From Escherichia phage A4, in the sequence record ON286972: DNA of 64,000 nucleotides. One strand, written 5' to 3'. Positions 32,907 to 50,671 of this stretch are shown one piece after another. The notes under the pieces were generated by a model, which was not told where the DNA came from, made no database searches, and worked only from the letters and a program-made list of their open reading frames with translations. The translations under genes and the position numbers were made by a program. Position 1 is the stretch's first letter, and every line of letters begins with the position of its first letter.

Positions 32907-32934
32907 GGGTTGACTTAGGTCAGCCCTTTTTTTA
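32907..32934 (+). terminator. intrinsic terminator (GGGTTGAC-TTAG-GTCAGCCC hairpin)
   Basis: Same hairpin family as the downstream terminator/promoter cassettes, followed by TTTTTTT, no good -10. Confidence 0.6.
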
Positions 32935-33457
32935 TGGGACAAAATGGATGTTCATGATACAATGATATTGTACAATTCTGTTGGCATGGATGACATGAAC
33001 CTGATCCACTCGAAAATGTAGAGGGCAGTTGAGCAGTCCAGCAGTGCGAAGTGCAGAAGAAACCCGTCAGATGTGGGCATATTATGAACCCCTCACGGCA
33101 ATGCGGCACTATAAAGAACCACGTTAGGATGGCTGGTGGTTCCTCGATAGACATATAAGGATAACACCTTACGAATTATCTAAGGGAGAGTTATCAAATT
33201 TTGTACAGGAAAGTTGCGTCCAAAATTTGAGTACTCACATTAAGTATTTGATTGCATAGATACTTAATGAAGATACACTATGTTTAAAAGTGTAGACCGT
33301 CATATGAAACTGAAGTAGAGAGAAACAGGATGACCCGCTTTCGTACTCATTAAGAGTAATCTTCAATGCAATAGCTCTGATACCATCAGCGTCAAATTCC
33401 CCTCCCAGCGGGGGGAAGAAAAATCCCTTCCTCAAATCCCGTCAATATTAAAAGTCC

Positions 33458-33486
33458 TTGACAGTTATTAATCATTCGCGTAGAAT
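33458..33486 (+). promoter_or_regulatory. sigma70-type promoter
   Basis: TTGACA-N17-TAGAAT. Confidence 0.5.
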
Positions 33487-33550
33487 ACGTAGTATTAGAA
33501 GCGAACAGACATCTCGAAGAGATGGATGACTAACTATTAAGGAACATTCA

Positions 33551-33760
33551 ATGAATACTACAATCTTTTTAATTGTTGCTCTTTCAATGCAATCCGGTGT
33601 ACAAATTACCCCTATGAATTCATTAAACCAATGTTTTTCTGTACGTGATAGTACATACGAACAAGTAAACAAAAATTCTTGGATGACAGTTAGTGAAGAA
33701 CAAATGTGGTGTTACAAAAGTGATATTAAAGCGAAATTTATTGTAGGACAAACTCAATGA
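33551..33760 (+). CDS. small secreted or membrane protein (69 aa)
   Basis: ORF track; hydrophobic N-terminus; AAGGAA RBS. Confidence 0.45.
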   Translation: MNTTIFLIVALSMQSGVQITPMNSLNQCFSVRDSTYEQVNKNSWMTVSEEQMWCYKSDIKAKFIVGQTQ

Positions 33761-33951
33761 TTTATCGAGTGAGGTTTGAAGTTTGTAAAATTGTTTTCAA
33801 TAGCAAAGGTGAAGCCTCACTAGATGAAACTATGCACATATATAATCTCCAATTTAGGGCAAAAACAGAAGCTGATGCATTAGTAAACATGTTTAATTTC
33901 AACCATAGGTGCGGGTATCATTTAGTAAGAGTTATAGAGGTTAAAAAGTAA
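33757..33951 (+). CDS. hypothetical protein (64 aa)
   Basis: ORF track; ATGA overlap. Confidence 0.45.
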   Translation: MIYRVRFEVCKIVFNSKGEASLDETMHIYNLQFRAKTEADALVNMFNFNHRCGYHLVRVIEVKK

Positions 33952-33981
33952 TCACCGAATGCAGTGAAGAGGAAATCTAAA

Positions 33982-34245
33982 ATGAGTACTATCAATGCAT
34001 TCAAGCACTTAGACAAAGGTATCAAACACTTTGATGTTGAATGTTTAAATTCAGGTATGAATCGTTTAGTACAAATTTACATGAAATCGTTTATAGGTAT
34101 TGACAGTGCACGACTACCAGTATATAATTACTTTATTGAAAGCGTAGAAGGTGAATCACTTCGTGATTATGGTGAAAGATTTAATAAGAAAGTTTTCACT
34201 GCAATAGCAAATGAGATTCATTACTATAAACCCTATGTAATTTAA
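33982..34245 (+). CDS. hypothetical protein (87 aa)
   Basis: Track ORF 33964..34245 trimmed to ATG 33982 after AGAGGAAA. Confidence 0.45.
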   Translation: MSTINAFKHLDKGIKHFDVECLNSGMNRLVQIYMKSFIGIDSARLPVYNYFIESVEGESLRDYGERFNKKVFTAIANEIHYYKPYVI

Positions 34246-34259
34246 TTAGAGGAACTATC

Positions 34260-34427
34260 ATGCAAATCATTATCTTAATCGTTGGTATCGGTTTGGGCAT
34301 CTATGGACATTCATGGGTAACTGAGAAGTTTCCTGACACCCGTCCAGATTACTGTACAACTAAAACAGAAAGTACTGAAAGTATTGGAACTAAGATCGAT
34401 AAAGTAATCGAGGTGATTAAACAATGA
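34260..34427 (+). CDS. small membrane protein (55 aa)
   Basis: Not in track; AGAGGAA RBS; hydrophobic MQIIILIVGIGLGIYG; followed by two 26-27 aa hydrophobic micro-ORFs at 34424..34504 and 34727..34810. Confidence 0.35.
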   Translation: MQIIILIVGIGLGIYGHSWVTEKFPDTRPDYCTTKTESTESIGTKIDKVIEVIKQ

Positions 34428-34515
34428 TGAAACTTAATATATTTCTGGTTGTATTCACTGTCGTTGTTATCGGTATTGGTGCACTGGCATATATCCAACC
34501 TTAAAGGAAAAATAA

Positions 34516-34716
34516 ATGTTTAAATCGAATACAAATGTTGGTAAGCAGGTTCAATTACTTGAAGACGTATCCACTATGAGTGGAACCTTCACTAAAGGTC
34601 ACATCATGACTATTATTGCCGAAACATCCCGTGGCTGGGACTTGGAAGATGCTGATGGTAATCGCATCCTTGAGGCTGGCTTCTATGGTCATCGTGAATA
34701 TAAAATTATCGATTAA
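34516..34716 (+). CDS. hypothetical protein (66 aa)
   Basis: ORF track; AAAGGAAA RBS. Confidence 0.45.
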   Translation: MFKSNTNVGKQVQLLEDVSTMSGTFTKGHIMTIIAETSRGWDLEDADGNRILEAGFYGHREYKIID

Positions 34717-34812
34717 GGATATAACATGATGTTAGAGGCTATCGTTGGTATTATTAGTTTAGTCGTCTGTGTAGGTTGGTTTGGGTATCTGATGATTTTT
34801 GGCGATTAATAC

Positions 34813-34840
34813 TTGACATAAGATATCAGTACTGTATAAT
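34813..34840 (+). promoter_or_regulatory. sigma70-type promoter
   Basis: TTGACA-N16-TATAAT with cagtactg spacer. Confidence 0.55.
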
Positions 34841-34884
34841 GTTTATATCAACGACACCCACTTTAACAAATAATAGGAAATATT

Positions 34885-35163
34885 ATGTCTTTTACCAAAG
34901 AAGAACGTGACCTTATTAAAAAAGCAATCTGGTTTTATGCTAATGAAGGGGAGTGCGATGAAGAAAAAGCACGTGAACTGTGTAATATCCTTGAGCAGAA
35001 ACAAGAACTGAAAGTTTATCGTATCCGTGTTTTGGATGACGGGGATCGTATTGTCCTAGCTGAAACAAAAGAAGAAGCAGAACAAATCTTCACTGATAAA
35101 AACGAAAATCCACATTGGATGGAAGAAGTCTGTGAAGTAAAAAAAGGTACTTATATCGATTGA
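34885..35163 (+). CDS. hypothetical acidic protein (92 aa)
   Basis: ORF track; TGA stop sits inside the next -35 (TTGACT). Confidence 0.5.
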   Translation: MSFTKEERDLIKKAIWFYANEGECDEEKARELCNILEQKQELKVYRIRVLDDGDRIVLAETKEEAEQIFTDKNENPHWMEEVCEVKKGTYID

Positions 35164-35188
35164 CTGTACTGAATAATAGCAGTATAAT
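35160..35188 (+). promoter_or_regulatory. sigma70-type promoter followed by long leader hairpin
   Basis: TTGACT-N17-TATAAT, then 13-bp stem GGGAATGCAGTGA...GTCACTGCGTTCCC at 35200-35250. Confidence 0.5.
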
Positions 35189-35281
35189 GTTTATATCAAA
35201 GGGAATGCAGTGAAAGGAAAGACAGCATAATCGTACTCGTCACTGCGTTCCCGCCCTTTTAAATTAAATGAGGAATTAACT

Positions 35282-35590
35282 ATGTTTCAAACTAACACTC
35301 AAGGTTTTGTAATCATCGATTTGAATCAAAACAGCGGTTATTGGATGAAACCTACTGACGCATGTATGCAGTTTGATTTCTTAGGTTACAGAATTAGTGT
35401 AAGTACTGGTGCTTCTGTACTGCGTGGTGGTTGTATCGTTGAACATCTGGTAACTGATCCAGAAGGTCGTGAGTATGAAATCGCAGGTTCAGTACAAGAT
35501 GCCATTATGTTTGTATGTCAGCGTGAAATGAATGGTTCGAATTCAAATGCACTGACTCATGCTCTTTCTCAAGAAGTGGAGGTTCGTTAA
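35282..35590 (+). CDS. hypothetical protein (102 aa)
   Basis: ORF track; GAGGAA RBS. Confidence 0.5.
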   Translation: MFQTNTQGFVIIDLNQNSGYWMKPTDACMQFDFLGYRISVSTGASVLRGGCIVEHLVTDPEGREYEIAGSVQDAIMFVCQREMNGSNSNALTHALSQEVEVR

Positions 35591-35835
35591 TGAAATATAT
35601 TGTAGCAGTACTAATTGCTTTCCTACTCACTGCATGTGATGCTTCAACAAAAGAACGAACTGGTGAGTTTGTTTTACCAACTGAACTCAAAGAAGCAGGG
35701 TGTAAGATTTATCGTATGCAACAGGAAGGTGCAGGTGCAACTTTGTACACTGTTTACTGTCCTAATGCAAACACTACTACGTCTTATATGAGTGGTAAAG
35801 TTCGCGTGGATACATCTGTGGTTCATGGAGAATAA
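35590..35835 (+). CDS. small lipoprotein (lipobox LLTAC)
   Basis: ORF track; N-terminus MKYIVAVLIAFLLTAC. Confidence 0.5.
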   Translation: MKYIVAVLIAFLLTACDASTKERTGEFVLPTELKEAGCKIYRMQQEGAGATLYTVYCPNANTTTSYMSGKVRVDTSVVHGE

Positions 35836-35837
35836 CA

Positions 35838-36206
35838 ATGAGTCTTGATACTACTCGTTCGGCAAATATCTTGGAACGTTTGAATGATGAAGAATATCTT
35901 GCTAATGCAAAATATCAGCTTGAAAAACTCATTCGAAATGTAAAATATGTTGATATCACTACACAGCTTCCACTAGATGAATATCACAAGTTAAACGAAG
36001 ATATTGTATATCACCCAAATGAAATTTGGATTGAGTGGGAATCATGGACTCATTCGGTTCTCCGTATCGAAGGATATTGTGTGAAATATGAAAGTTCACC
36101 AGGTGATTTTACAAAAAAACTGTCGATATTGTGCACTGACACACATGAAATAGTTGAGGTGAATTTGAATCATATGAAGGGTTGCCGTTGGGGAGATGTT
36201 AAATGA
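35838..36206 (+). CDS. hypothetical protein (122 aa)
   Basis: ORF track. Confidence 0.5.
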   Translation: MSLDTTRSANILERLNDEEYLANAKYQLEKLIRNVKYVDITTQLPLDEYHKLNEDIVYHPNEIWIEWESWTHSVLRIEGYCVKYESSPGDFTKKLSILCTDTHEIVEVNLNHMKGCRWGDVK

Positions 36207-36478
36207 TTAAAAAACTCTTGACGGTGTTTGTTGTATTCTGTACAATGTTTCTTACAGCATGTAATGATGACGGCAGGTTCAGTGCAAAAGACTTAGTTCG
36301 TCAGGATTGTACATTCACAGGTAAGTCTTTTATTAACGAATATGAAATATGTACACAAGCAGGACGTATTTGTGGGGGTTGGGAAAAACGTCAGGAGCGT
36401 CTGTATGTATATGATTGTCCAGGACACCTCAACAAAGTACTAAGCACACACAAACTTGTTTATGATAAGGTTGAATAA
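36203..36478 (+). CDS. small lipoprotein (lipobox FLTAC)
   Basis: ORF track; N-terminus MIKKLLTVFVVFCTMFLTAC. Confidence 0.5.
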   Translation: MIKKLLTVFVVFCTMFLTACNDDGRFSAKDLVRQDCTFTGKSFINEYEICTQAGRICGGWEKRQERLYVYDCPGHLNKVLSTHKLVYDKVE

Positions 36479-36687
36479 TGACTACCAATGAAATGATGCA
36501 GGTTATTTGGAATAAAGGTTGTGATATTAAAATCACTAGTACTGATGTTCGTGTATTCAAAACTGAATACATGGAATACTTGGACCTTGATACTTATAAT
36601 AATATTGTATCAATTGAACACAAAGGTGCAGTACTGGAAACAATTGACGTTGTTCTCAAGAAAGCAACGGATTTATTGGGAGCATAA
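36478..36687 (+). CDS. hypothetical protein (69 aa)
   Basis: ORF track. Confidence 0.45.
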   Translation: MTTNEMMQVIWNKGCDIKITSTDVRVFKTEYMEYLDLDTYNNIVSIEHKGAVLETIDVVLKKATDLLGA

Positions 36688-36688
36688 G

Positions 36689-36835
36689 GTGAACAATAAA
36701 GAATGGGAAGAGTACCGCAAGAAGTGCCGAGAGTTTGATAAAGAACTCACTGGTACTGTGAACGCAGTAATGTGGGTATCTGCAATAATTGCAGTACTGG
36801 GACTGTTTGCAGTTATCATTAATAAGTTTTTTTGA
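36689..36835 (+). CDS. small C-terminally membrane-anchored protein (48 aa)
   Basis: Track ORF 36521..36835 overlaps upstream gene; trimmed to GTG 36689 after GGAG. Confidence 0.35.
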   Translation: MNNKEWEEYRKKCREFDKELTGTVNAVMWVSAIIAVLGLFAVIINKFF

Positions 36836-36844
36836 GGAATACAC

Positions 36845-37045
36845 ATGTTTACTTTATATCTAGCTGTAGTACTAACAAATGGTGAAATCACACGTACATT
36901 CGGTGATGGTGTATATAAAACACCTGAGCAGTGTTATTCTGCGACACACTGGCCTCGTGATGCTGGTGACGAAACTCGTACCGAATACAAATGTATGAAG
37001 GTCAAAGGTGACTTTGTTAACCTTAAGGTCATTGAGGTGAAGTAG
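36845..37045 (+). CDS. hypothetical protein (66 aa)
   Basis: ORF track; GAGGAA RBS. Confidence 0.45.
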   Translation: MFTLYLAVVLTNGEITRTFGDGVYKTPEQCYSATHWPRDAGDETRTEYKCMKVKGDFVNLKVIEVK

Positions 37046-37551
37046 TGAATCTTAGTACTGATAAGTTTGTAAAGTTCATAGAGTTTATCAATTTCAATGA
37101 GAGCTACAATGGTACGTACAATACTATGAATATTGTATCTGATAAAGTATTTGATAGTACAATGTTCTATTTGTATGATACAAACGGTGATAAGCTGTGT
37201 GATGTTACATTCGGTATTGGTGATCTTTTTGAATCTGCGGTTTATCTATCTAAACCAACGGTGCGTGATACATATGAAATTCACTTTCATAATAGACCGA
37301 ATCACAAAAACATTGTAGAATATGATATACCATCATCACACGAACTGTTCATTGTAGATTACAGTACTGAAGAGGGTGTATTTCAAAGTTCATTGCTATA
37401 CAACTTTGAACTACACGATCCTGATATTCCTAAAGTACTGGCAATTTCGAATAAGGTATGTGAATTGCCATATAACATATACATGTCAGTTCCTGGTAAA
37501 AGAGTAGGTAATTTCTGTAAAGCCTTTGACATACAAGCGGATGATAAATGA
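37045..37551 (+). CDS. FQ-motif paralog family protein
   Basis: ORF track (GTG start); TEEGVFQSSL. Confidence 0.55.
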   Translation: MNLSTDKFVKFIEFINFNESYNGTYNTMNIVSDKVFDSTMFYLYDTNGDKLCDVTFGIGDLFESAVYLSKPTVRDTYEIHFHNRPNHKNIVEYDIPSSHELFIVDYSTEEGVFQSSLLYNFELHDPDIPKVLAISNKVCELPYNIYMSVPGKRVGNFCKAFDIQADDK

Positions 37552-37981: not shown

Positions 37982-37985
37982 AAAC

Positions 37986-38014: not shown

Positions 38015-38045
38015 ATCTGTATTATGAATTAACTGAGGAATACGT

Positions 38046-39599: not shown

Positions 39600-39690
39600 T
39601 AACCAAGTACTCATATAAAATACAGAATAGTATTAAATACTTGTGTACTAGTTAAGTACGCAAGTATTTTTTTATTATTTTGAGGTTAAT

Positions 39691-40795: not shown

Positions 40796-40803
40796 TTAAA
40801 AAA

Positions 40804-40836
40804 GGTTGACTAACGTCAGCCTTTTTTGTTATACTG
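40804..40836 (+). promoter_or_regulatory. terminator/promoter cassette (hairpin containing -35, T-tract, -10)
   Basis: GGTTGAC-TAAC-GTCAGCC hairpin, TTTTTT, TATACT; TTGACT -35 lies inside the stem. Confidence 0.55.
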
Positions 40837-40844
40837 ATCCCAAT

Positions 40845-40970
40845 ATGCTTGCATTTCTTCAAGTTGATGTATATGAAGAAAGTAATGGCGAACAGTATGT
40901 TAAACTTGTGATGATGCGTAAGGCAGCAAAACAGGCAACATTCGGTGGCTTGTGTAAATATGAGGACTAA
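40845..40970 (+). pseudogene. truncated copy of the C-terminus of the 40442..40795 gene family (41 aa)
   Basis: LQVDVYEESNGEQYVKLVMMRKAAKQATFGGLCKYED versus LQVNMIEGEDGTQEVKLVLKRIGDKEADFGGECTYDD. Confidence 0.4.
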
Positions 40971-40974
40971 ACAT

Positions 40975-41166
40975 ATGTTGATTTATCAATGTGATAACAT
41001 TCGTGTTATACAGCATCCCTACTTACAAATCTTTGATGTGCAGCAGTATATGGAAGGTGATGACCCAAGAACCTATGGTCGTAAGTATGATTACTTCACT
41101 GTAAAGCAGTGTCGTAACATCAAAGAAGTACGACAATTAGTTCAAGAACTTCAAAATAAAGGTTGA
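40975..41166 (+). CDS. hypothetical protein (63 aa)
   Basis: Track ORF 40945..41166 trimmed to ATG 40975 after GAGGA. Confidence 0.45.
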   Translation: MLIYQCDNIRVIQHPYLQIFDVQQYMEGDDPRTYGRKYDYFTVKQCRNIKEVRQLVQELQNKG

Positions 41167-41193
41167 CTTCGGTCAGCCTTTTTTGTTATAATC
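41161..41193 (+). promoter_or_regulatory. terminator/promoter cassette
   Basis: GGTTGAC-TTCG-GTCAGCC hairpin, TTTTTT, TATAAT; the TGA stop of the upstream gene is inside the hairpin. Confidence 0.6.
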
Positions 41194-41221
41194 ATTTCAT
41201 CTACTACTGGGGATTTTAATT

Positions 41222-41662
41222 ATGTATGTATATCGTTTTGAACTTAAATTCAGTTATATTGAACCTAACTTAGATCCTGCAAAAACAGTAGGACCGTTCG
41301 CACGGTACTCTTCGCGATACAGTACTAAAAATGGATTTGAACGTTTGTGTATGACTACACCTTCGCAATTCCAACCTGAGCCAACTGAAGATGGGATATA
41401 TTCAATCAAACGTGGCTGGGTATTTGGTTGTCAGAGTTTGAATGATTTGTTTAAGTTCTTTACTATGGACTTGGGTAAATTACATCGTGCAGGGTTCGCT
41501 GTATCAGTATATGAAGTTCCTGATAACCATGTAGACATTGGACATAACCAAGTGCAGTACTATTGTGGTAGTGCAAAACTACTTCGTATTATGTCAGTAA
41601 AGGAAGCTAAAGAAGAATTTCGTGCTACAAGATTTAATAAGGAAGAGATGGCATATGAATAA
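41222..41662 (+). CDS. hypothetical protein (146 aa)
   Basis: ORF track. Confidence 0.55.
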   Translation: MYVYRFELKFSYIEPNLDPAKTVGPFARYSSRYSTKNGFERLCMTTPSQFQPEPTEDGIYSIKRGWVFGCQSLNDLFKFFTMDLGKLHRAGFAVSVYEVPDNHVDIGHNQVQYYCGSAKLLRIMSVKEAKEEFRATRFNKEEMAYE

Positions 41663-42521: not shown

Positions 42522-42527
42522 ACTACG

Positions 42528-42559
42528 GGGTTGACATAAGTCAGCCCTTTTGTATAATG
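42528..42559 (+). promoter_or_regulatory. terminator/promoter cassette
   Basis: GGGTTGAC-ATAA-GTCAGCCC, TTTT, TATAAT; -10 ends only 8 nt before ATG 42567. Confidence 0.55.
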
Positions 42560-43145: not shown

Positions 43146-43156
43146 CAGGAAAAAAT

Positions 43157-43588: not shown

Positions 43589-43812
43589 TGAAAAGGTATA
43601 AAATTGAATACCTACTTAAAGTAAGAGAGAAAAGTATTAGTAGTGAGAAATACACCAGTGAGATATTCGTCAGAGATGAGTATTACATTGGTGAAAATGA
43701 AGTTGAAGTACTGTTACAATGCATAGAAAATGAATTTCAAGATATGACACGTTATATGTCATTTGAGATATCGTGTGCAAAAGTTACATTCTTGAACAAT
43801 ACTTCATATTAA
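43585..43812 (+). CDS. hypothetical protein (75 aa)
   Basis: ORF track; ATGA overlap. Confidence 0.45.
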   Translation: MMKRYKIEYLLKVREKSISSEKYTSEIFVRDEYYIGENEVEVLLQCIENEFQDMTRYMSFEISCAKVTFLNNTSY

Positions 43813-43816
43813 AAAA

Positions 43817-43856
43817 GGGTTGACTTTTGTTGACCCTTTTTGCTATTCTATAAATA
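43817..43856 (+). promoter_or_regulatory. terminator hairpin with degenerate promoter region (TATAAATA box)
   Basis: GGGTTGAC-TTTT-GTTGACCC hairpin, T-tract, then CTATTCTATAAATATAG. Confidence 0.45.
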
Positions 43857-43902: not shown

Positions 43903-45441
43903 ATGCCAGGTAAATTCACTGACAAAAACGGCGGCAATATGGCTGGACACTCTGATAAATGGAGTGATGAGAATCGTCGCAAAAATAGTTTCCAAGCGGG
44001 GCAAGGTTCCCGTGGCTCTCGCAACCAAGGAACGGGAGAAGCTGGGAAAGCAAACACAGTTGCATCACAGGGTCTTGATACTTCAAACATGTCCCAGCAT
44101 GAAAAATTGAAGTACTTCAATAGTCTTGGTCTTTTAAATCCGCAGCAGAAGCAACAACTTGCTGCACTGGATAAAGCACAAGAACAACCTAAAGCAGCAC
44201 CAGAAGCACCTGCACAGCCTAAAGCGGCTAATCCGGTAAAAGAACTAAGTGATAAACTTGGGAAGATCTTTGCTAACAAACCACAACTAATTCAAGGTAT
44301 CGTAAAAGCACTTCAAGCGGTTCCTAAAGAACAACTCAAGGATAAAGCACAAGCTGTTCTTGATAGTATGAAAGGGAATACCAGTACTGAACCAACTGAA
44401 GTATTCAGTACTATCATGCGTGCACTTGAAGGTAAGCCACAGGCTGATGATGATATTGAGTTTGATGAACCTGCACAAGAAGTAGCAAATCTTGACTCAA
44501 TCGTTTCTACATTTGGAAAAATTGGTGCAGAAGATAAGACTAATGCACAACAAGTTAAGAATGTACAAGCTAAGTTACAAAATCGTCTTGAAGGTAAAGA
44601 TGAAAAGATTAAACTTGCAGCAGATGCGTTGAAGAAAGCATTAGAATCATATAAACCTGGTGAGAAATCTCGCTTCATTACTGCAATGAATGCAGTATTC
44701 GGTGCAATGAAGAAGTATGAAGCTGAACACGGTGAGAAAGTAACTCCTGATGGATATCTCCTTCGCAAAGATGAAGAAGGTGCTGTTGACCAGAAGGACG
44801 CTGAACCAGACTATGGTAATTTACCAGATACAGTTGATATGGATGGTTACATTCATCGTCCTGATATGCAAGAATTTGGTTCAGACAAAGAAGGTTTTGA
44901 ACATGCTATGGCTGTGTACAAAGCATTAGTCGATAATCCACAATATGCAAATAGTTTTGTAGATGAGTTTGATAGTGCATGGAACAACTACCAAGACAAA
45001 GGATATGATTTCCCAGCAGAAGCAGCATTCTTTGAACTAGGTAAACTTCTTGCTAAAAATGGTATTAATGTTGGTTCTAATGGTGAAGCAAACACTTCAG
45101 AAATGGACGCTGAATTGGCTAAAGATCGTGAAATGACTGATAAGTCAATTCATGAACTACAAAAGCTAATGATGTGGATTGCTGAAATTGGCAAGAAAGC
45201 TGGTGCAGATCCTAAGAGCATTAACAGCAATATTAGTTGGATTAAACATAAGGTTGATAACAATGCCCGTAAATTACAAAAGGCATGGACCGACCTAGTG
45301 AATGGTGCAGACGATGTTGATATCGATTCACCAGAAGCATACGAGTACGCATTGAACACACTTGATAACTCTTTCAAGGATTACGAAAATGGTAACGTAA
45401 CTGATTGGGAAAAGGATATCATGCATAAGTACGGTAAATGA
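43903..45441 (+). CDS. hypothetical Lys/Ala/Glu/Gln-rich protein (512 aa)
   Basis: ORF track; GGAGAG RBS; codon usage richer in GC than neighbours; low-complexity N-terminus. Confidence 0.6.
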   Translation: MPGKFTDKNGGNMAGHSDKWSDENRRKNSFQAGQGSRGSRNQGTGEAGKANTVASQGLDTSNMSQHEKLKYFNSLGLLNPQQKQQLAALDKAQEQPKAAPEAPAQPKAANPVKELSDKLGKIFANKPQLIQGIVKALQAVPKEQLKDKAQAVLDSMKGNTSTEPTEVFSTIMRALEGKPQADDDIEFDEPAQEVANLDSIVSTFGKIGAEDKTNAQQVKNVQAKLQNRLEGKDEKIKLAADALKKALESYKPGEKSRFITAMNAVFGAMKKYEAEHGEKVTPDGYLLRKDEEGAVDQKDAEPDYGNLPDTVDMDGYIHRPDMQEFGSDKEGFEHAMAVYKALVDNPQYANSFVDEFDSAWNNYQDKGYDFPAEAAFFELGKLLAKNGINVGSNGEANTSEMDAELAKDREMTDKSIHELQKLMMWIAEIGKKAGADPKSINSNISWIKHKVDNNARKLQKAWTDLVNGADDVDIDSPEAYEYALNTLDNSFKDYENGNVTDWEKDIMHKYGK

Positions 45442-45450
45442 TAAAAAAAG

Positions 45451-45484
45451 AGGTTGACTTCGGTCAGCCTTTTTTGCTATAATA
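45451..45484 (+). promoter_or_regulatory. terminator/promoter cassette
   Basis: AGGTTGAC-TTCG-GTCAGCCT, TTTTT, TATAAT. Confidence 0.6.
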
Positions 45485-45511: not shown

Positions 45512-45787
45512 ATGAACACATACGAACGTTTAGTTGGCTCAATGCGTTATGAAGAAATTTTAAGTGATATTGAAGAACTGAAAGACTCTAAAAGTTACAT
45601 CCACTTAGATGAACTTATCGTGAAGTATGGGGAGGTTGGTGCAAAAGAATTAATTTGCTTTATGGTTCATGTTCGAAATTTAAATTACTTTGATCTTTCA
45701 TCGAAGAACGGTGAACCGAATCTTTATTATCTATATTATTTGAAACATAAAGATGCATGTAATAAATTATTCTTAGAACTTTTATAA
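45512..45787 (+). CDS. hypothetical protein (91 aa)
   Basis: ORF track; AAGGAG RBS. Confidence 0.5.
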   Translation: MNTYERLVGSMRYEEILSDIEELKDSKSYIHLDELIVKYGEVGAKELICFMVHVRNLNYFDLSSKNGEPNLYYLYYLKHKDACNKLFLELL

Positions 45788-45800
45788 CTGGAGATATCTA

Positions 45801-46392: not shown

Positions 46393-46402
46393 TGAAAAGT
46401 AT

Positions 46403-46430
46403 TTGACAAACTCAACTAGTACTGTATAAT
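46403..46430 (+). promoter_or_regulatory. sigma70-type promoter
   Basis: TTGACA-N16-TATAAT with tagtactg spacer. Confidence 0.55.
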
Positions 46431-46477
46431 GTTTATCAAGGGGATGAACTTCTCATCCCTACAATCGAGGAACTACC

Positions 46478-47029
46478 ATGATTACTTTTAAGAAAACTGC
46501 CAACCACATCCATGAAATTTACATTAACGGTCACAAAGCTGGCCTTCTTCGTTTACTCGCCCATCATCCTGATGTTACCGTATCTGATAATGAACCTAAA
46601 GATTGGCGTGTATTTTTCTTTGGAAAGTACAGTGATTTTCAAGTATCAAACCTGAAGAACATTCGTTCAGTATGCACGTTAACTGAAATTAAAGAAAAGT
46701 TAACCAAAGCATTGAAAACTAATCCAGATGGTGTTCTTCCACCTGATAACTTTGTAGAGAAAGGATATGCCTTAGCTCATTTCAAAGATGGTACTATTCA
46801 ATCTATCAGTACTGAATATGAATACCAATGGACTGAGTACTTCACTTATGGCTCCCGTAATACTTTGATGGCTTCACGTAGTAAATTGGAAGAAGTACTG
46901 ACTCGTATGAATGAACGCGAGCGTCAGTACTATGAACCAGAAATGTGGAGTTCAACTTACATTGACCGTATTGACTATGTTATGATGACTCCAATCTTTG
47001 ACACTGCTTACTATGATTCTTTGAAATAA
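46478..47029 (+). CDS. hypothetical protein (183 aa)
   Basis: ORF track; GAGGAA RBS. Confidence 0.55.
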   Translation: MITFKKTANHIHEIYINGHKAGLLRLLAHHPDVTVSDNEPKDWRVFFFGKYSDFQVSNLKNIRSVCTLTEIKEKLTKALKTNPDGVLPPDNFVEKGYALAHFKDGTIQSISTEYEYQWTEYFTYGSRNTLMASRSKLEEVLTRMNERERQYYEPEMWSSTYIDRIDYVMMTPIFDTAYYDSLK

Positions 47030-47040
47030 GGATAACTTAT

Positions 47041-47217
47041 ATGAAACTACGTACTCGCAATCGACTGATGGATGCCCTATATCATGAACAGTGTTCATTA
47101 AATGAAGTAAAGCGTCAGTTAATGTACACATATCAGTTACCCGCTCGTGTTGCAAAACAACGTGCTAACGAATTGCTGAAAGAAGCAATCGAGTACTGGG
47201 AATCTGATTCGTACTAA
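47041..47217 (+). CDS. small hypothetical protein (58 aa)
   Basis: Not in track; AAGGAT RBS; clean ATG to TAA frame. Confidence 0.4.
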   Translation: MKLRTRNRLMDALYHEQCSLNEVKRQLMYTYQLPARVAKQRANELLKEAIEYWESDSY

Positions 47218-47256
47218 TATTACGTGATATGTCACGTTAATTAAGTGAGGCGATAA

Positions 47257-47508
47257 ATGAAAATATTATTAGTTCTAATACTACTAATTGTTTTACCATT
47301 TACTTTAGTATCCCCTGAACTTGCATGGAATGTGTTTGTGTACTTAGTATGTACTATTGTAGTAAATGGTATCTTGTTCTTAGTTCTATTCATAAATGGA
47401 ATAGGACACGGTGGAGGATGGACCAGTACTGCTGATATTGTACATAAAACCACTATGTCTTTATTTGTAGTGTGGAATTTATTCTGGACTTGGTTTGTGT
47501 TCTTCTAA
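47257..47508 (+). CDS. small integral membrane protein (83 aa)
   Basis: ORF track; GAGG RBS. Confidence 0.45.
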   Translation: MKILLVLILLIVLPFTLVSPELAWNVFVYLVCTIVVNGILFLVLFINGIGHGGGWTSTADIVHKTTMSLFVVWNLFWTWFVFF

Positions 47509-47517
47509 TTAAAAAAT

Positions 47518-47889
47518 ATGAATATAGATTTGAAAGGTGCAACACGAACTGTCATACTCATTGGGGAATATGCTATCAAGATTCCAACCTTCAAAAGCTG
47601 GAAGTTATTCCTAACTGGAATGATAGCTAACCTCAATGAACGCTCATGGATGCAGTACTCCAAGCGTAGTGACAGTGGGATATGTCCTACTCTGTGGTCA
47701 TCGCGAACTGGCTTAATAACAGTACAGAAACGTTGTAAGCCAGTACAACATAGGGGTTTGTTTTGGGTGGAGTTGAGTGCATTAGCATTGAATTCAGAGT
47801 TGAGTACTGACTTCTTCTATTCAGATGCGAAGCCAGAAAACTTTGGATATTTGAATGGTAAGTTAGTTAAGCTTGATTATGGAGATTAA
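47518..47889 (+). CDS. minimal protein-kinase-like protein (123 aa)
   Basis: YAIKIP (beta3 Lys), DAKPENFGY (D-x-K-P-E-N catalytic loop), KLDYGD (DFG-like); truncated after DFG. Confidence 0.45.
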   Translation: MNIDLKGATRTVILIGEYAIKIPTFKSWKLFLTGMIANLNERSWMQYSKRSDSGICPTLWSSRTGLITVQKRCKPVQHRGLFWVELSALALNSELSTDFFYSDAKPENFGYLNGKLVKLDYGD

Positions 47890-47916
47890 TATGTACGCAT
47901 TGTATAATAAAGAAAA

Positions 47917-47950
47917 GGATTGACTTCAGTCAGCCCTTTTTTCTATAATC
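47917..47950 (+). promoter_or_regulatory. terminator/promoter cassette
   Basis: GGATTGAC-TTCA-GTCAGCCC, TTTTTT, TATAAT, then conserved CATTTCATC. Confidence 0.55.
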
Positions 47951-47977
47951 ATTTCATCGAAACGAGAGGATGAATAC

Positions 47978-48415
47978 ATGACACGCATTAACTTAGTACA
48001 TGTTAAAGAACTTGCTGACCAACATCTGATGGCTGAATATCGTGAACTTCCACGTGTGTTTGGTGCTGTACAAAAACATGTTCAAGCACGTAAGCGTGTA
48101 CGTGATTTCAAAATTAACAGTACTTATCTGTTAGGTTCAGGTCATGTAACATTCTTCTACGACAAGTTACTATACTTACAGAAGCGTCATATTGATATTG
48201 TTAACGAATGTTTGCGTCGTGGTATGAAGATTCAAAACACTGAAGTAAACGACATTAGCGGCTTCCCTGCTGAGTTTTGTAATGACTACGTACCATCGGA
48301 GTCCGAGATTAAAACATCACGCGAGCGTTTGATTGAGAAGCTTCAGATGAAGCCTAAGTGGTATAAGTTTACTGATGTTGAGCTACCTATATATTATGTT
48401 GATATGATACAATGA
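47978..48415 (+). CDS. denV: pyrimidine-dimer DNA glycosylase / endonuclease V
   Basis: Near full-length similarity to T4 endonuclease V as recalled: [30 protein letters not shown]...KRVRDFKI......[11 protein letters not shown]. Confidence 0.9.
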
Positions 48416-48639
48416 ATGATGAAGAATTCAAAAAATATGCGATTGCGAAGCTTGATTCATACAAGTCACGCGAAACGTATAAATTTAATCCTGATAAAAC
48501 AAAAGCATCTATAAGATGGATGATTAATTCACCCAAATATACATTTGACGAAAAATATTCATGGATAGTGCAATGTAGTGATTATGAGGATTTGGTATAT
48601 AATATTAAACTGTGTTGGTATGAATACAACAATAAATGA
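48412..48639 (+). CDS. hypothetical protein (75 aa)
   Basis: ORF track; ATGA overlap. Confidence 0.45.
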
Positions 48640-48645
48640 TATAAG

Positions 48646-48679
48646 GGGTTGACTTCGGTCAGCCCTTTTTGCTATAATC
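48646..48679 (+). promoter_or_regulatory. terminator/promoter cassette
   Basis: GGGTTGAC-TTCG-GTCAGCCC, TTTTT, TATAAT, CATTTCATC. Confidence 0.6.
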
Positions 48680-48704
48680 ATTTCATCAAATTAAGAGGTG
48701 ATAC

Positions 48705-48944
48705 ATGAAACTATCTTTTATACGTTTAGCAGAATTCTTCGGTACTGATATAATTACTTTACAACAAATTGCAGACAATACTTCATTAAGTACACAAGAA
48801 GTACTTGACTTAGATGTGATAGAGTGTGATAATACTTCTATCGATTATAAAGAAGGTCTTGTCGAAAAAGATAAGATTCAGGCTAAGATTAATGGTGCTG
48901 GACGGGTTCAGTACTGGAAAGGAGTTTTAAGTCATGCCAGCTAA
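48705..48944 (+). CDS. hypothetical protein (79 aa)
   Basis: ORF track; AGAGGTGA RBS. Confidence 0.45.
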   Translation: MKLSFIRLAEFFGTDIITLQQIADNTSLSTQEVLDLDVIECDNTSIDYKEGLVEKDKIQAKINGAGRVQYWKGVLSHAS

Positions 48945-50631
48945 ATTAACCCCTAAACAAGCAAAAGAAAAATTCAACAAAAAAGTATTAGAACATAACG
49001 TTCCAATTGAAGCTGATTATAGTAAGTATGAAAATGCCAAATTAAAAAACATCCAAGTAGTTTGCAATGATGTATTAAAACACAAATCAGGCATATCACA
49101 AATATATCTTATGGATCACGCAAACCTCACACACCCATCCAAAAAATTTGGTTGTCCTGAATGTGAAGACTGGTATAATGGTCATGCTAAAAGTTTAGAT
49201 ATTTTAATTGTTAGGGAAAGAATTAATTCTTGGATTAGTACTTATGGCGGGATTATTGATACGGTTAGTGGTGAAGTTGAAGTTTATAAAAATAATTCAT
49301 CCAAAATACCATATATTTGTAAAAATGGAACTAAAAAAACGCTTACTATTTCTTCACTTGGCGATGAAATCGGTTGTAATTGTTCTAAATGTAAAGCTGA
49401 ATTAATATCAGAAATCGAAGATAACAATGAATATACATCCATGACTACTGTTGATGATTGTGTTACAATTTCCCATTTTAAATTTGGGGATGATGTTGCA
49501 TTCTCGTGGATTTCACCATTGGAAATGAAAAAACATGGTTACTGTCTTGCCGAAAAAATGAAAGAAAAAGCATTGTCGGTTGGTAAAAATATTATTGGAT
49601 ATGCAATATCATCTCTTAGTGAATGGAAAAATGAAAAAACTCCTGTAATAACCGAACACGAAGGAGTATTATATCGTATTTCCAAAGCATCATATTTGAT
49701 CAATAATAATATAGTACATAGACCACATTATACAAAAAATAATTTTTTATATTATTTTTACAAATGTTCACCTAACAATCAACTTATTACACCAATCCTA
49801 ATACCTGATGATATTGGTACAAAAAAGAAAATTAAAGTATGTTATAAATCATGTGGGTGTGAATATGATATATCTGTGGACGTTATAATGAACAGAAATT
49901 TAAAAACTTGTGGAAACTGTAAAAATATAGATACTAATAAATTTATAGAACAGTGCTTGGAGTTCACTTCAAGTGGAGATTATATCTATGATAGAGTAAA
50001 CTATATAAATCAAAGTACACCTGTAACTATAGTTCATAAAATTTACGGCGAATTCAAAAGTACACCACAAAATCACTTAATACATTTAAAAAACGGTTTG
50101 AAATATGATACAGCTAACTTTAAAATAAAAAATTTAACTCAATTTAAAATTAAAGCAAATGAAGTTCATAATAACTTATATAATTATGATAAAGTTGATT
50201 ATGTAAATTCTTCAACGAAAGTATTAATAACTCATCCAGTATATGGAGACTTTTGGCAAACTCCAGCAAGTCACCTTGGTGGGTGTGGTCATCCACTTGC
50301 GGCTGGTCATTCTCAGCAATATGCATATATTCATAATATTTTGGATGGTGTTTTATCTGTAGCATTGAAATATGGGATTGAAAAGCAGAAAGGTAAGAGG
50401 GTGATGCAGCAAAATAAAAAATCCATGTTTCAAGTTCAATCTCTGTATACTTATTTTTTTCCATCTGTATACGAATGTAAGCAAGCTGAAAAAGAATGTA
50501 AGAAACTATTTGGTAAAGGTGTTTTAACTAAACAAGAAATGCCAGACGGGTATACTGAAACAACTACACCAAACAACATAGATAAAATTATTGCCATCTA
50601 TGAAAAATGGGGTGGGGTGAAACAAAACTAA
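48934..50631 (+). CDS. Cys-rich protein with three internal repeats (565 aa)
   Basis: ORF track; CPECEDW, CNCSKC, CGCEYD, CGNCKN pairs; repeat Y.YD.V.Y.N.ST.V.I.H..YG.F..TP..HL three times. Confidence 0.6.
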   Translation: MPAKLTPKQAKEKFNKKVLEHNVPIEADYSKYENAKLKNIQVVCNDVLKHKSGISQIYLMDHANLTHPSKKFGCPECEDWYNGHAKSLDILIVRERINSWISTYGGIIDTVSGEVEVYKNNSSKIPYICKNGTKKTLTISSLGDEIGCNCSKCKAELISEIEDNNEYTSMTTVDDCVTISHFKFGDDVAFSWISPLEMKKHGYCLAEKMKEKALSVGKNIIGYAISSLSEWKNEKTPVITEHEGVLYRISKASYLINNNIVHRPHYTKNNFLYYFYKCSPNNQLITPILIPDDIGTKKKIKVCYKSCGCEYDISVDVIMNRNLKTCGNCKNIDTNKFIEQCLEFTSSGDYIYDRVNYINQSTPVTIVHKIYGEFKSTPQNHLIHLKNGLKYDTANFKIKNLTQFKIKANEVHNNLYNYDKVDYVNSSTKVLITHPVYGDFWQTPASHLGGCGHPLAAGHSQQYAYIHNILDGVLSVALKYGIEKQKGKRVMQQNKKSMFQVQSLYTYFFPSVYECKQAEKECKKLFGKGVLTKQEMPDGYTETTTPNNIDKIIAIYEKWGGVKQN

Positions 50632-50637
50632 ACAAAA

Positions 50638-50671
50638 GGGTTGACTTCGGTCAGCCCTTTTTGCTATAATT
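50638..50671 (+). promoter_or_regulatory. terminator/promoter cassette
   Basis: GGGTTGAC-TTCG-GTCAGCCC, TTTTT, TATAAT, TATTTCATC. Confidence 0.6.

What the first reader, a model, noticed from the sequence alone, without database searches (positions are those of the whole stretch)
32907..50671. Nine copies of a compact terminator/promoter cassette whose UUCG-type hairpin embeds the -35 box
At 32907, 40804, 41161, 42528, 43817, 45451, 47917, 48646 and 50638 the consensus is GGGTTGAC-TTCG-GTCAGCCC, then TTTTT, then gCTATAAT, often followed by CATTTCATC. The hairpin with T-tract is an intrinsic terminator for the upstream gene, while the TTGACT inside the 5' arm plus the TATAAT 17 nt downstream form a consensus sigma70 promoter for the next gene. 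In several copies the upstream gene's TGA stop codon is part of TTGAC. These resemble the mobile PeSL (promoter-early stem-loop) cassettes described in T4-type phages as far as I recall; the 32907 copy lacks a good -10 and may be a decayed cassette.
Basis: partly seen in the sequence, partly recalled or inferred. Interest (0 to 1): 0.7.

Follow-up and report, generated by a model that had tools for sequence, protein, structure and literature searches.

The report
Terminator-promoter cassettes (PeSLs) in jumbo phage
Nine copies of a ~50-base signal that both ends the upstream transcript and restarts transcription for the next gene sit between small early genes of a giant E. coli phage. They are the same kind of promoter/stem-loop cassette (PeSL) already described in T4-like phages, so this is a known device in a phage group where it had not been pointed out.

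Summary
All nine copies are on the + strand at the stated positions; shuffles give none. Consensus: A-tract, GGGTTGAC-UUCG-GTCAGCCC, T5, G(C/T), TATAAT.

Corrections:
- The -35/-10 spacer is 18 nt, not 17, and usually includes a TGn extended -10.
- Only one copy (41161) has the upstream TGA stop inside TTGAC.
- Copy 32907 is terminator-only.
- Copies 42528 and 43817 have atypical promoter halves.

The window comes from a divergent 121Q/PBECO4/RaK2-like (Asteriusvirus-type) jumbo coliphage.

The hairpin appears to be selected at the RNA level. 3'-arm variants are U-A to U.G switches. Loops in relatives are mostly UNCG or GNRA. The antisense fold is much weaker.

In public viral contigs, 88% of 113 such hairpins carry a -10 box at 16-18 nt, against 9% for shuffled tails.

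Vibrio phage nt-1, where PeSLs were formally described, has the same cassette with the -35 inside the 5' arm.

Between relatives, sequence identity starts or stops abruptly at the cassette edge. Multi-allelic gene slots lie just upstream of cassettes, as the PeSL linker model predicts, though the statistics are modest (p about 0.02-0.1).

Verdict: a new member of a known kind. Function is inferred, not measured.

The parts
32902..32933 (+). Cassette copy 1, terminator-only. A-tract, hairpin GGGTTGAC-TTAG-GTCAGCCC (32907-32926), T7. No -10 box. Lies 7 nt after the stop of the phage RpoD-like sigma gene (31937-32899).
   Evidence: -12.9 kcal/mol; Sigma70_r2/r3/r4. Same position in Turkey3, BF17 and G17.
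40797..40835 (+). Cassette copy 2. Hairpin AGGTTGAC-TAAC-GTCAGCCT (40803-40822), T-tract, -10 TATACT (40830-40835). This copy was not found at the corresponding position in the five relatives compared.
   Evidence: (-10.5). Similarity to relatives starts at 40831-40851.
41154..41201 (+). Cassette copy 3. Hairpin AGGTTGAC-TTCG-GTCAGCCT (41160-41179), T6, TGT, TATAAT (41187-41192), CATTTCATC. The stop TGA of ORF 40945-41166 lies inside TTGAC. ATG of the next gene is at 41222.
   Evidence: Orthologous copy in all five relatives.
42527..42558 (+). Cassette copy 4. Hairpin GGGTTGAC-ATAA-GTCAGCCC (42528-42547), T4, G, TATAAT (42553-42558), spacer 16. The ATG is only 8 nt after the -10, so the promoter half is doubtful. 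Mainly a terminator or attenuator.
   Evidence: (-12.3).
43811..43856 (+). Cassette copy 5. Hairpin GGGTTGAC-TTTT-GTTGACCC (43817-43836) with two wobble pairs, T5, GC, weak -10 TATTCT (43844-43849) overlapping TATAAATA (43849-43856). TATAAATA is the T4 late-promoter consensus. Upstream of a 512-aa gene whose 121Q counterpart is annotated as virion structural protein.
   Evidence: (-9.8). The T4 late consensus is quoted.
45445..45483 (+). Cassette copy 6. Hairpin AGGTTGAC-TTCG-GTCAGCCT (45451-45470), T6, GC, TATAAT (45478-45483). ATG at 45512.
   Evidence: In relatives the hairpin is kept but the -10 is absent. Identity to slurp01 and G17 stops right after the T-tract.
47911..47958 (+). Cassette copy 7. 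Hairpin GGATTGAC-TTCA-GTCAGCCC (47917-47936) with one mismatch, T6, C, TATAAT (47944-47949), CATTTCATC. Upstream of the denV-like pyrimidine-dimer glycosylase gene (47978-48415).
   Evidence: (-5.5). Relatives have 1-2 extra ~270-nt ORFs exactly upstream.
48640..48687 (+). Cassette copy 8, perfect consensus. GGGTTGAC-TTCG-GTCAGCCC (48646-48665), T5, GC, TATAAT (48673-48678), CATTTCATC. ATG at 48705.
   Evidence: (-12.7). Right edge of a gene slot with five different contents in six phages.
50632..50679 (+). Cassette copy 9, perfect consensus. GGGTTGAC-TTCG-GTCAGCCC (50638-50657), T5, GC, TATAAT (50665-50670), TATTTCATC. ATG at 50699 (P-loop NTPase-like gene).
   Evidence: Right edge of a gene slot with four different contents in six phages. 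Shares a 33-nt exact match with copy 8.

Best explanation
These are PeSL-type (promoter-early / stem-loop) composite regulatory cassettes, in the early, small-ORF region of a 121Q/RaK2-like jumbo coliphage.

How a cassette works:
- Transcription arriving from upstream copies the 8-bp GC-clamped hairpin, usually with a C(UUCG)G tetraloop, followed by a U-tract. This ends or attenuates the transcript a few bases after the stop codon of the upstream gene.
- On the DNA, the 5' arm of the same hairpin is the -35 hexamer TTGACT.
- The upstream A-tract is an AT-rich, UP-like element.
- The T-tract plus 'GC' forms the 18-nt spacer, ending in a TGn extended -10.
- TATAAT is the -10. Host sigma-70 RNA polymerase therefore restarts about 7 nt downstream, probably at the A of CATTTC-A-TC, giving a 26-29 nt leader with a GAGG ribosome-binding site.

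Each gene or short operon thus becomes an insulated, self-expressed module.

Because 33-45 nt of near-identical sequence is repeated at many gene junctions, within the genome and in related phages, the cassettes also serve as homology patches (linkers). Recombination there swaps, inserts or deletes the neighbouring genes.

Shown here: the anatomy, its non-random recurrence, RNA-type conservation of the hairpin, coupling of hairpin and -10, sequence identity with cassettes in the PeSL phages nt-1 and KVP40, and mosaic boundaries at cassette edges.

Inferred: actual termination, actual initiation, and recombination at the cassette as the cause of the boundaries.
For: Recurrence
- Nine copies against 0 expected by shuffling.

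Hairpin selected as RNA on the + strand
- + strand RNA folds at -9.8 to -12.9 kcal/mol in 8 of 9 copies, against -5 to -8.6 for the antisense.
- Among 44 copies retrieved by synteny, the pairs opposite the fixed TTGAC change only between U-A and U.G.
- The outer pair shows G-C, A-U, U-A and C-G.
- Among 113 unique IMG/VR instances, the loops are UNCG in 48 and GNRA in 20.
- Copies that have lost the -10 still keep the hairpin: 32907, and slurp01 L001:17361.

Promoter half
- TTGACT, 18 nt, TATAAT scores 11/12 with TG in four copies (41163, 45454, 48649, 50641); 47920 scores 11/12 without the TG.
- 99 of 113 hairpins in viral contigs have a -10 matching at least 5 of 6 positions at 16-18 nt. The shuffled-tail expectation is 8.8%.

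Independent terminator calls
- G17 GenBank annotation gives -13 to -17 kcal/mol by ARNold.
- The CBB paper's supplement lists Torf515, 518 and 520.

Membership in PeSLs
- The definition and five subclasses, including stem-loops overlapping the -35, and lacZ assays showing promoter and terminator activity of RB49/phi1 PeSLs, are in PMC2839356.
- The nt-1 stem-loop consensus A3-4 G3-loop-C3 T3-4 is in PMC4122927.
- nt-1 intergenic regions at 44629, 54920 and 55533 contain the same design. They also share the transcribed start ATCGAAACGA with window copy 47917.
- KVP40 has 6 exact-pattern copies.

Linker role
- Upstream of copies 47917, 48646 and 50638, six phages carry unrelated sequence. Identity begins 5-8 nt before the hairpin.
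- At 45451 identity runs through the hairpin and stops at the -10.
- The two slots just upstream of copies 48646 and 50638 hold 5 and 4 different gene contents.
- In Turkey3, 5 of 12 variation boundaries lie at cassettes, against 10 of 66 junctions (p=0.025).

Clustering
- All nine copies lie within 18 kb of small ORFs; none elsewhere in the 64 kb.
- Exact-pattern copies in 121Q lie in two retrieved stretches (L005, L006) that correspond to the syntenic region fetched as L002.
Against: - No transcript 5' or 3' ends, reporter assays or in vitro transcription exist for this phage or any Asteriusvirus in the searchable literature.
- The U-tract is short (4-6 U, then G), so termination may be partial.
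- An 18-nt spacer is suboptimal for sigma-70.
- Copy 42528 leaves only 8 nt between the -10 and the ATG. Copy 43817 has a poor -10. Copy 47917 has a weak stem.
- The breakpoint association is only modest when tested against gene junctions: p=0.11 for the window at >=80% identity HSPs, and 0.02 when the 75-77% HSPs are included. Hot slots are not independent events.
- Several variation boundaries lie at junctions without cassettes, and one lies at a plain promoter (46403).
- The host phage is not a member of Straboviridae, the family in which PeSLs were defined.
Confidence: 0.78

Rival explanations
1. The cassettes are real terminator/promoter signals, but they play no special part in recombination. 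Mosaic boundaries fall there only because they are gene boundaries kept conserved by functional constraint. The variable slots are variable because of selection on accessory genes.
For: - The window-only Fisher test is not significant at the strict threshold (p=0.11).
- Boundaries also occur at cassette-free junctions (34514, 37054, 41622, 48408, 48936, 51471) and at a plain promoter (46403).
- The left edges of the variable slots lie at ends of conserved genes, not at cassettes.
Against: - Identity switches on within 5-8 nt of the hairpin in three multi-allelic slots, and off inside the cassette at 45451.
- In 121Q and G17, the 5'UTR of the denV cassette is a chimera of its paralogues and its orthologue. 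That pattern suggests exchange inside cassettes.
- Mini-circles formed by PeSL-PeSL recombination were demonstrated in RB49/phi1 (PMC2839356).
Confidence: 0.25
2. The inverted repeat TTGAC-N4-GTCA is a DNA operator for a dimeric phage or host regulator that sits on the -35 of a subset of early promoters. On this reading the RNA hairpin is a by-product.
For: - Inverted repeats overlapping a -35 are typical operators.
- Arbiol et al. speculated that the GGGG...CCCC motif might be a protein target.
- The cassettes form a distinct subset among about 45 TTGAC-type promoters in the window.
Against: - The repeat is imperfect on DNA, with a conserved T:G position (86 of 100 unique copies, 36 of 44 in the synteny-retrieved set), yet perfect as RNA.
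- Loop sequences vary freely but favour stable RNA tetraloops.
- The repeat is always followed by a T-run and preceded by a stop codon.
- Copies without any -10 persist at gene ends.
Confidence: 0.06
3. They are plain intrinsic terminators. The TTGAC in the stem and the downstream TATAAT-like sequence are accidents of an AT-rich genome and of copying one terminator sequence around.
For: - Annotators of G17 and CBB listed them only as terminators.
- Copy 32907 and several copies in relatives are terminator-only.
- AT-rich DNA gives many -10-like hexamers: 109 promoter-like hits against 88 expected.
Against: - 88% of 113 independent instances have a -10 at 16-18 nt, against 9% expected.
- TTGAC was present in every copy retrieved by synteny rather than by the search pattern (window and five relatives), while the loop and outer stem vary.
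- Leader length and ribosome-binding-site geometry are constant in five window copies.
- Other terminator-like hairpins in the window (e.g. 39635-39669) lack TTGAC.
Confidence: 0.05

Closest known systems
nt-1/KVP40-type PeSLs of Vibrio T4-like phages (Comeau, Arbiol & Krisch 2014, PMC4122927)
   Same: - Same architecture and nearly the same sequence: A3-5, GGG, TTG(A/C)..., loop, ...CCC, T4-6, G, TAT(A/T/C)AT, with the -35 inside the 5' arm.
- Same transcribed start ...CATCGAAACGA in some copies.
- Intergenic position between small ORFs.
- Clustered in a hyperplastic early region.
- Found next to indels and replacements between close relatives.
   Different: - The host phage is a ~350-kb RaK2/121Q-like jumbo myovirus that encodes its own RpoD-like sigma, not a Straboviridae member.
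- The -35 is the full TTGAC, whereas the nt-1 consensus is TTGYVH, mostly TTGCA.
- The -10 is the perfect TATAAT.
- The UUCG loop predominates.
RB49/phi1 PeSLs (Arbiol et al. 2010, PMC2839356)
   Same: - Near-consensus sigma-70 promoter plus a G-run/C-run stem-loop plus an AT-rich upstream region.
- One of the five described subclasses has the stem-loop overlapping the -35.
- Promoter and terminator activities were shown by lacZ fusions, and recombination between copies yields mini-circles.
   Different: - In RB49/phi1 the commonest position of the stem-loop is between the -35 and -10, or over the -10. Here it is always over the -35.
- No experimental data exist for the present cassettes.
- Sequence-level identity to RB49 copies was not tested.
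Ordinary Rho-independent terminators as annotated in Asteriusvirus and Mimasvirus genomes (G17 record MK327931; CBB, PMC5259590 supplement)
   Same: These are the very same hairpins (GGGTTGACTTCGGTCAGCCC plus a T-run), predicted by ARNold at -13 to -17 kcal/mol.
   Different: Those annotations treat them as terminators only. The embedded -35, the coupled -10 and the link to gene-content variation are not mentioned in the main texts I could read.
Lambdoid-phage 'morons' (ORF flanked by its own promoter and terminator)
   Same: Both are self-contained expression modules that can be added to a genome without disturbing neighbours. The concept is cited.
   Different: - Morons differ in GC content from their surroundings and are thought to arise by non-homologous acquisition.
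- Here the promoter and terminator are fused into one repeated linker, and the composition is uniform at 32-38% GC.

Membership tests
PeSL (promoter-early stem-loop) cassettes | Sigma-70-type early promoter (-35, ~17-nt spacer, -10) in the orientation of the downstream gene | tested here: met
   Five copies (41163, 45454, 47920, 48649, 50641) have TTGACT, 18 nt, TATAAT (11/12), four of them with TGn. One (42531) has TTGACA, 16 nt, TATAAT (12/12). 40806 has TATACT (10/12) and 43820 has TATTCT. One copy has no -10.
PeSL (promoter-early stem-loop) cassettes | Stable stem-loop (often G-run ... C-run) within or next to the promoter. One described subclass overlaps the -35. | tested here: met
   All nine copies have an 8-bp stem GGGTTGAC/GTCAGCCC with the -35 in the 5' arm. 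Eight fold at -9.8 to -12.9 kcal/mol and one at -5.5.
PeSL (promoter-early stem-loop) cassettes | AT-rich tract upstream of the -35, intergenic position from upstream stop codon to downstream Shine-Dalgarno/ATG | tested here: met
   An A-rich run precedes the stem in every copy. Stop-to-hairpin distance is 4-9 nt in 7 copies, 27 nt in one, and overlapping in one. Five copies have 26-29 nt from the -10 to the ATG, with GAGG/GGGG before it.
PeSL (promoter-early stem-loop) cassettes | Many copies concentrated in hyperplastic regions rich in small ORFs of unknown function | tested here: met
   Nine copies lie in 32.9-50.7 kb among ORFs mostly under 150 aa; none elsewhere in the 64 kb. Relatives have 8-10 copies in the syntenic stretch. 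The whole genome of this phage was not available.
PeSL (promoter-early stem-loop) cassettes | Located at insertion, deletion or replacement boundaries between closely related phages | tested here: met
   Identity begins or ends at the cassette edge at 43817, 45451, 47917, 48646 and 50638, and near 40804. Multi-allelic slots lie upstream of 48646 and 50638. Enrichment over other junctions is modest: p=0.025 in Turkey3, and 0.02-0.11 in the window.
PeSL (promoter-early stem-loop) cassettes | Sequence resemblance to published PeSLs | tested here: met
   nt-1 at 44629 reads AAAAAGGGTTGACAGATGTCAGCCCTTTTTTGTATCAT. nt-1 at 54920 and 55533 has the same design with TTGC. KVP40 has 6 matches to GGTTGAC-N4-GTCAGCC-Y-TTT. 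This fits the published consensus A3-4 G3-loop-C3 T3-4.
PeSL (promoter-early stem-loop) cassettes | Demonstrated promoter and terminator activity; formation of mini-circles by recombination between copies | not testable with these tools
   Shown only for RB49/phi1. No transcriptomic or PCR data were found for Asteriusvirus-type phages.
PeSL (promoter-early stem-loop) cassettes | Host genome is a T4-like myovirus (as in the original descriptions) | tested here: not met
   The window matches Asteriusvirus (121Q, PBECO4, slurp01) at 85-91% over 40-57% of its length. This is a genus of RaK2-like jumbo phages outside Straboviridae (taxonomy lines). This feature reflects where PeSLs were first found, not how they work.
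Rfam RNA families | Match to any curated covariance model at gathering score | tested here: not met
   Only six tRNAs reach threshold in the window. Around copy 32907 there are only sub-threshold matches to the terminator ends of sRNA models.

The most novel reading that the evidence does not exclude
The ~35-55 nt cassette may itself be a horizontally travelling unit shared across unrelated families of large virulent myoviruses.

The same string, GGGTTGAC-UUCG-GTCAGCCC-T4-5-G(C/T)-TAT(A/T)AT, occurs in:
- RaK2/121Q/CBB/GAP32-like jumbo phages;
- Vibrio KVP40/nt-1 and Aeromonas phage 65 (Straboviridae);
- ~150-kb Cronobacter/Pectobacterium phage records (CR9, PBES 02, PcCB7V);
- a 127,065-bp IMG/VR contig carrying two copies, and the 127,819-bp Brochothrix phage ADU4 (phage of a Gram-positive host).

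These copies include the thermodynamically suboptimal but conserved U.G pair. That pair makes the element one-directional: there is no -35 and only a weak hairpin on the other strand.

If this is true homology rather than convergence on a tightly constrained design, PeSLs would be a pan-myovirus plug-in linker that allows gene exchange between otherwise non-homologous phages.

A second untested possibility is that placing the release site of the terminating polymerase on top of the next promoter promotes polymerase recycling, that is, termination-coupled re-initiation.
Probability: 0.2. Interest if true: 0.6.

Novelty: new member of a known kind. Interest (0 to 1): 0.35.

Why it matters
**Annotation.** In 121Q/RaK2-type jumbo phages these hairpins are currently annotated, if at all, as plain terminators. 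Recognising them as combined terminator/promoter cassettes defines the early transcription units: each is a one- to four-gene insulated module.

**Gene-content variation.** The reading predicts where gene content will differ between isolates, namely in the slots just upstream of cassettes. That is useful when comparing therapeutic jumbo coliphages.

**Reach of the PeSL concept.** It extends PeSLs beyond Straboviridae. It also shows that the 'minus-35 inside a UUCG or GNRA hairpin' design recurs in many large virulent phages.

**Engineering.** The design is a compact part of about 45 nt that ends one transcript and starts the next.

Tried and rejected
- **Rfam, whole window at gathering threshold, and permissive scan around copy 1.** No family matched. 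Only terminator-like tails of sRNA models appeared below threshold.
- **E. coli complete genomes, blastn with a 60-nt cassette.** No match, so the cassette is not host-derived.
- **The consensus terminator scanner.** It flagged only 3 of the 9 copies. It extends the stem into the A/T tracts and then finds too few T's. It was therefore not used as evidence for or against.
- **Literature on RaK2, Sharanji, CBB, PA5oct and N1M2.** No description of composite cassettes in RaK2-like phages. CBB lists the hairpins as terminators.
- **The KVP40 genome paper (PMC180978).** Not held. I could not check whether the -35-in-hairpin arrangement was already noted there.
- **Breakpoint enrichment using the window alone at >=80% identity.** Not significant (p=0.11). 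The window is too divergent from its relatives over 37-46 kb to be informative there.
- **Wobble (GTCAG) versus fully palindromic (GTCAA) versions in IMG/VR.** This was meant to test the 'directionality' idea. Results were 113 versus 62 unique instances, with 88% versus 50% followed by a -10. The palindromic class is counted on both strands, so the contrast is not conclusive.
- **A DNA-operator or cruciform reading.** Rejected because of the conserved T:G position and the RNA-tetraloop bias.

Full report
**1. The observation**

A search for GGGTTGACTTCGGTCAGCCC with up to three mismatches finds seven + strand hits and none in 100 dinucleotide-preserving shuffles. Nothing comparable occurs elsewhere in the 64 kb.

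The consensus is: A-rich run, GGGTTGAC, TTCG, GTCAGCCC, T5, G(C/T), TATAAT, (C/T)ATTTCATC.

Small corrections:
- The 20-nt hairpins of copies 2 and 3 start one base earlier, at 40803 and 41160.
- The -35/-10 spacer is 18 nt (16 nt at 42528), not 17. Its last bases form a TGn extended -10 in five copies.
- Only ORF 40945-41166 uses the TGA inside TTGAC as its stop.
- CATTTCATC is exact in three copies.
- Copy 32907 has no -10. Copy 40804 has TATACT. Copy 43817 has TATTCT.

**2. Where we are**

The window is AT-rich (31-38% GC) and is transcribed left to right up to about 53 kb. It matches Asteriusvirus jumbo coliphages (slurp01, 121Q, PBECO4, G17, Turkey3, BF17) at 85-91% identity over only 40-57% of the query. 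It is therefore a divergent relative of that genus.

The cassettes lie in a run of small ORFs of unknown function, downstream of a phage RpoD-like sigma gene at 31937-32899 (Sigma70_r2/r3/r4). Copy 1 sits directly behind that gene.

The same strand carries about 40 further TTGAC...TATAAT promoters without a hairpin. The hairpin is therefore not needed for a promoter as such.

**3. Is the hairpin real, and at what level?**

As + strand RNA, eight of nine hairpins fold at -9.8 to -12.9 kcal/mol (copy 47917: -5.5). The antisense RNA reaches only -5 to -8.6, because a conserved U.G pair becomes a C.A mismatch.

Among 44 unique copies retrieved by synteny from the window, five relatives and nt-1:
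- The bases opposite the fixed TTGAC change only A<->G, that is U-A <-> U.G.
- The outermost pair shows G-C, A-U, U-A and C-G.

I scanned IMG/VR for GGTTGAC-N4-GTCAGCC-Y-TTT, leaving the loop free. This returned 113 unique instances. Loops are UNCG in 48 and GNRA in 20, about 60% against roughly 5% expected.

Copies that have lost the -10 still keep the hairpin and T-run at the gene end. Examples are 32907 and the slurp01/121Q/G17 orthologues of copy 45451.

Other annotators independently called the identical hairpins Rho-independent terminators (G17 record; CBB supplement). Together this argues for an RNA hairpin working in the sense orientation, that is an intrinsic terminator or attenuator.

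**4. Is the promoter half real?**

Five window copies score 11/12 against the sigma-70 consensus and one scores 12/12. More telling, 99 of the 113 IMG/VR hairpins (88%) are followed by a -10 matching at least 5 of 6 positions at a 16-18 nt spacing. Shuffling the downstream sequence gives 8.8%.

Five window copies share a constant geometry: the -10, then 26-29 nt, then the ATG, with GAGG or GGGG before it.

Exceptions:
- Copy 42528 leaves only 8 nt before the ATG. It is probably mainly a terminator.
- Copy 43817 has a weak -10 that overlaps TATAAATA, the T4 late-promoter consensus quoted. It precedes a gene annotated as virion structural protein in 121Q. It may be a terminator plus late promoter.

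**5. Comparison with PeSLs**

Arbiol et al. 2010 (PMC2839356) define PeSLs as an AT-rich tract plus a near-consensus sigma-70 promoter plus a G-run/C-run stem-loop. They lie between a stop codon and the next Shine-Dalgarno sequence. There are five subclasses by stem-loop position, one of which overlaps the -35.

That paper showed promoter and terminator activity with lacZ fusions. It also showed mini-circles formed by recombination between neighbouring PeSLs.

Comeau et al. 2014 (PMC4122927) give the nt-1/KVP40 stem-loop consensus as A3-4 G3-loop-C3 T3-4. I fetched nt-1 (HQ317393) and read its intergenic regions:
- 44629: AAAAAGGGTTGACAGATGTCAGCCCTTTTTTGTATCAT
- 54920: AAAAGGGTTGCTTCGGCAGCCCTTTTTTGTTATTCT
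- 55533: AAAAGGGTTGCACTATGCAGCCCTTTTTAGTATTAT

The downstream ...CATCGAAACGA also follows window copy 47917 and copies in other jumbo contigs. KVP40 itself has six exact-pattern copies.

The window's cassettes are therefore the nt-1/KVP40 type of PeSL.

**6. Do they mark gene shuffling here?**

I aligned the window with the syntenic regions of slurp01, 121Q, Turkey3, G17 and BF17 and printed the junctions in register.

- Upstream of copies 47917, 48646 and 50638, the six phages carry unrelated sequences. Identity switches on 5-8 nt before the hairpin and continues into the downstream gene.
- At copy 45451 the opposite happens. Identity to slurp01 and G17 runs through the upstream gene, hairpin and T-tract, and stops where the -10 begins.
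- The slot before 48646 holds five different contents in six phages. One of these, in Turkey3, is an extra cassette plus a DUF4379 gene.
- The slot before 50638 holds four different contents.
- The slot before 47917 holds zero, one or two ~270-nt ORFs.
- Copy 40804 has no counterpart at that position in the five relatives compared, and with 41161 it brackets a single small ORF.
- In 121Q and G17 the leader of the denV cassette looks like a chimera of its paralogues and its orthologue.

Copies 48646 and 50638 share a 33-nt exact match and 49 of 57 identical positions. That is short, but within the range the PeSL authors consider usable by T4-type recombination.

Tested against gene junctions as the null, the enrichment is modest. 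In Turkey3, 5 of 12 boundaries lie at cassettes against 10 of 66 junctions (p=0.025). For the window, p=0.11 at the strict threshold and 0.02 at the looser one.

I therefore regard the linker role as likely but not proven. A rival reading, that conserved signals simply happen to sit at gene boundaries, keeps about a quarter of the probability.

**7. Distribution**

A 60-nt cassette finds 157 phage records:
- All RaK2-like genera, on Escherichia, Klebsiella, Salmonella, Cronobacter, Pectobacterium, Erwinia, Serratia and Yersinia hosts, with 4-11 BLAST places each among the records listed.
- Vibrio KVP40-like phages.
- Aeromonas 65-like phages.
- ~150-kb Cronobacter/Pectobacterium phage records (CR9, CR8, PBES 02, PcCB7V).
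- Brochothrix phage ADU4.

In IMG/VR, a 127,065-bp contig carries two copies. No E. coli genome contains the cassette, and no Rfam family covers it.

The design is so constrained that convergence can explain much of the identity. The -35 fixes five stem bases, C-G closes a UUCG loop, a GC clamp precedes the U-tract, and the spacer length fixes the T-run and TGn. True horizontal spread is not excluded.

The conserved U.G pair is present in 86 of the 100 unique copies collected (36 of 44 in the synteny-retrieved set). It is not explained by stability. A plausible but untested reason is that it removes a -35 and a strong hairpin from the opposite strand.

**8. Verdict**

It belongs to a known kind (PeSL), here in a phage group where the literature I could search describes the hairpins only as terminators.

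Function (termination, initiation, recombination) is inferred from sequence, comparative patterns, and experiments on RB49/phi1. It has not been measured for this phage. Interest is moderate to low for a specialist. The cross-family recurrence and the directional wobble pair are the only mildly surprising points.

Noticed in passing
window 16019-19087: Cluster of six tRNA genes on the + strand (16019, 16999, 17521, 17615, 17698, 19015), interleaved with sigma-70-type promoters.
   Followed up: partly
window 16553, 16962, 17486, 26183, 34813, 35160, 46403: A second repeated promoter family without a terminator hairpin: TTGAC(T/A)...CAGTACTGTATAATGTTT. The spacer ends in the 8-bp palindrome CAGTACTG, overlapping a TGn extended -10. 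The copy at 46403 is also the exact start of a 94%-identity block shared with relatives.
   Followed up: partly
window 32927-33550: About 620 nt after the sigma-gene terminator with no + strand ORF over 35 aa. Relatives also annotate no CDS there (e.g. slurp01 locus 3848-4498), yet the DNA aligns at about 77%. A permissive Rfam scan found nothing meaningful. Could be a long leader, a small-protein region or an unknown RNA.
   Followed up: partly
window 43849-43856: TATAAATA, the T4 late-promoter consensus, directly follows the weak -10 of cassette copy 5. It is conserved in relatives (…TATACTATAAATATAGACATAGAGA). It lies upstream of a gene annotated as virion structural protein in 121Q. This suggests a terminator plus late-promoter variant of the cassette.
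   Followed up: partly
window 59218-59321, 60469-60574, 61730-61835, 62965-63080: Four copies of a ~105-nt sequence spaced about 1.25 kb apart in the - strand block (GC skew reverses after ~54 kb). They match the intergenic spacers between tandem paralogous genes annotated as RCC1-like / 'regulator of chromosome condensation' in 121Q.
   Followed up: no
window 47950-47970; L032 (nt-1) 41028, 48079, 55533, 59017 regions; L021/L022/L025: The start of the predicted transcripts, ...(T/A)CATCGAAACGA..., is shared between this jumbo coliphage, other RaK2-like contigs and Vibrio phage nt-1. In nt-1 it occurs at promoters both with and without the hairpin. It contains GAAACG, which resembles the TGAAACG element reported as a second promoter class in CBB and GAP32.
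   Followed up: no
window 39635-39669: A different, long AT-rich hairpin followed by a T-run (AAATACTTGTGTACTAGTTAAGTACGCAAGTATTT TTTTATTATT). A terminator-like site without TTGAC.
   Followed up: no
all cassette copies (e.g. window 48649/48662): The stem pair formed by the first T of TTGAC is a U.G wobble in 86% of the 100 unique copies collected across phage families (36 of 44 in the synteny-retrieved set), rather than the more stable U-A. The fully palindromic GTCAA version exists (62 unique instances in IMG/VR) but is less often followed by a -10 box.
   Followed up: partly
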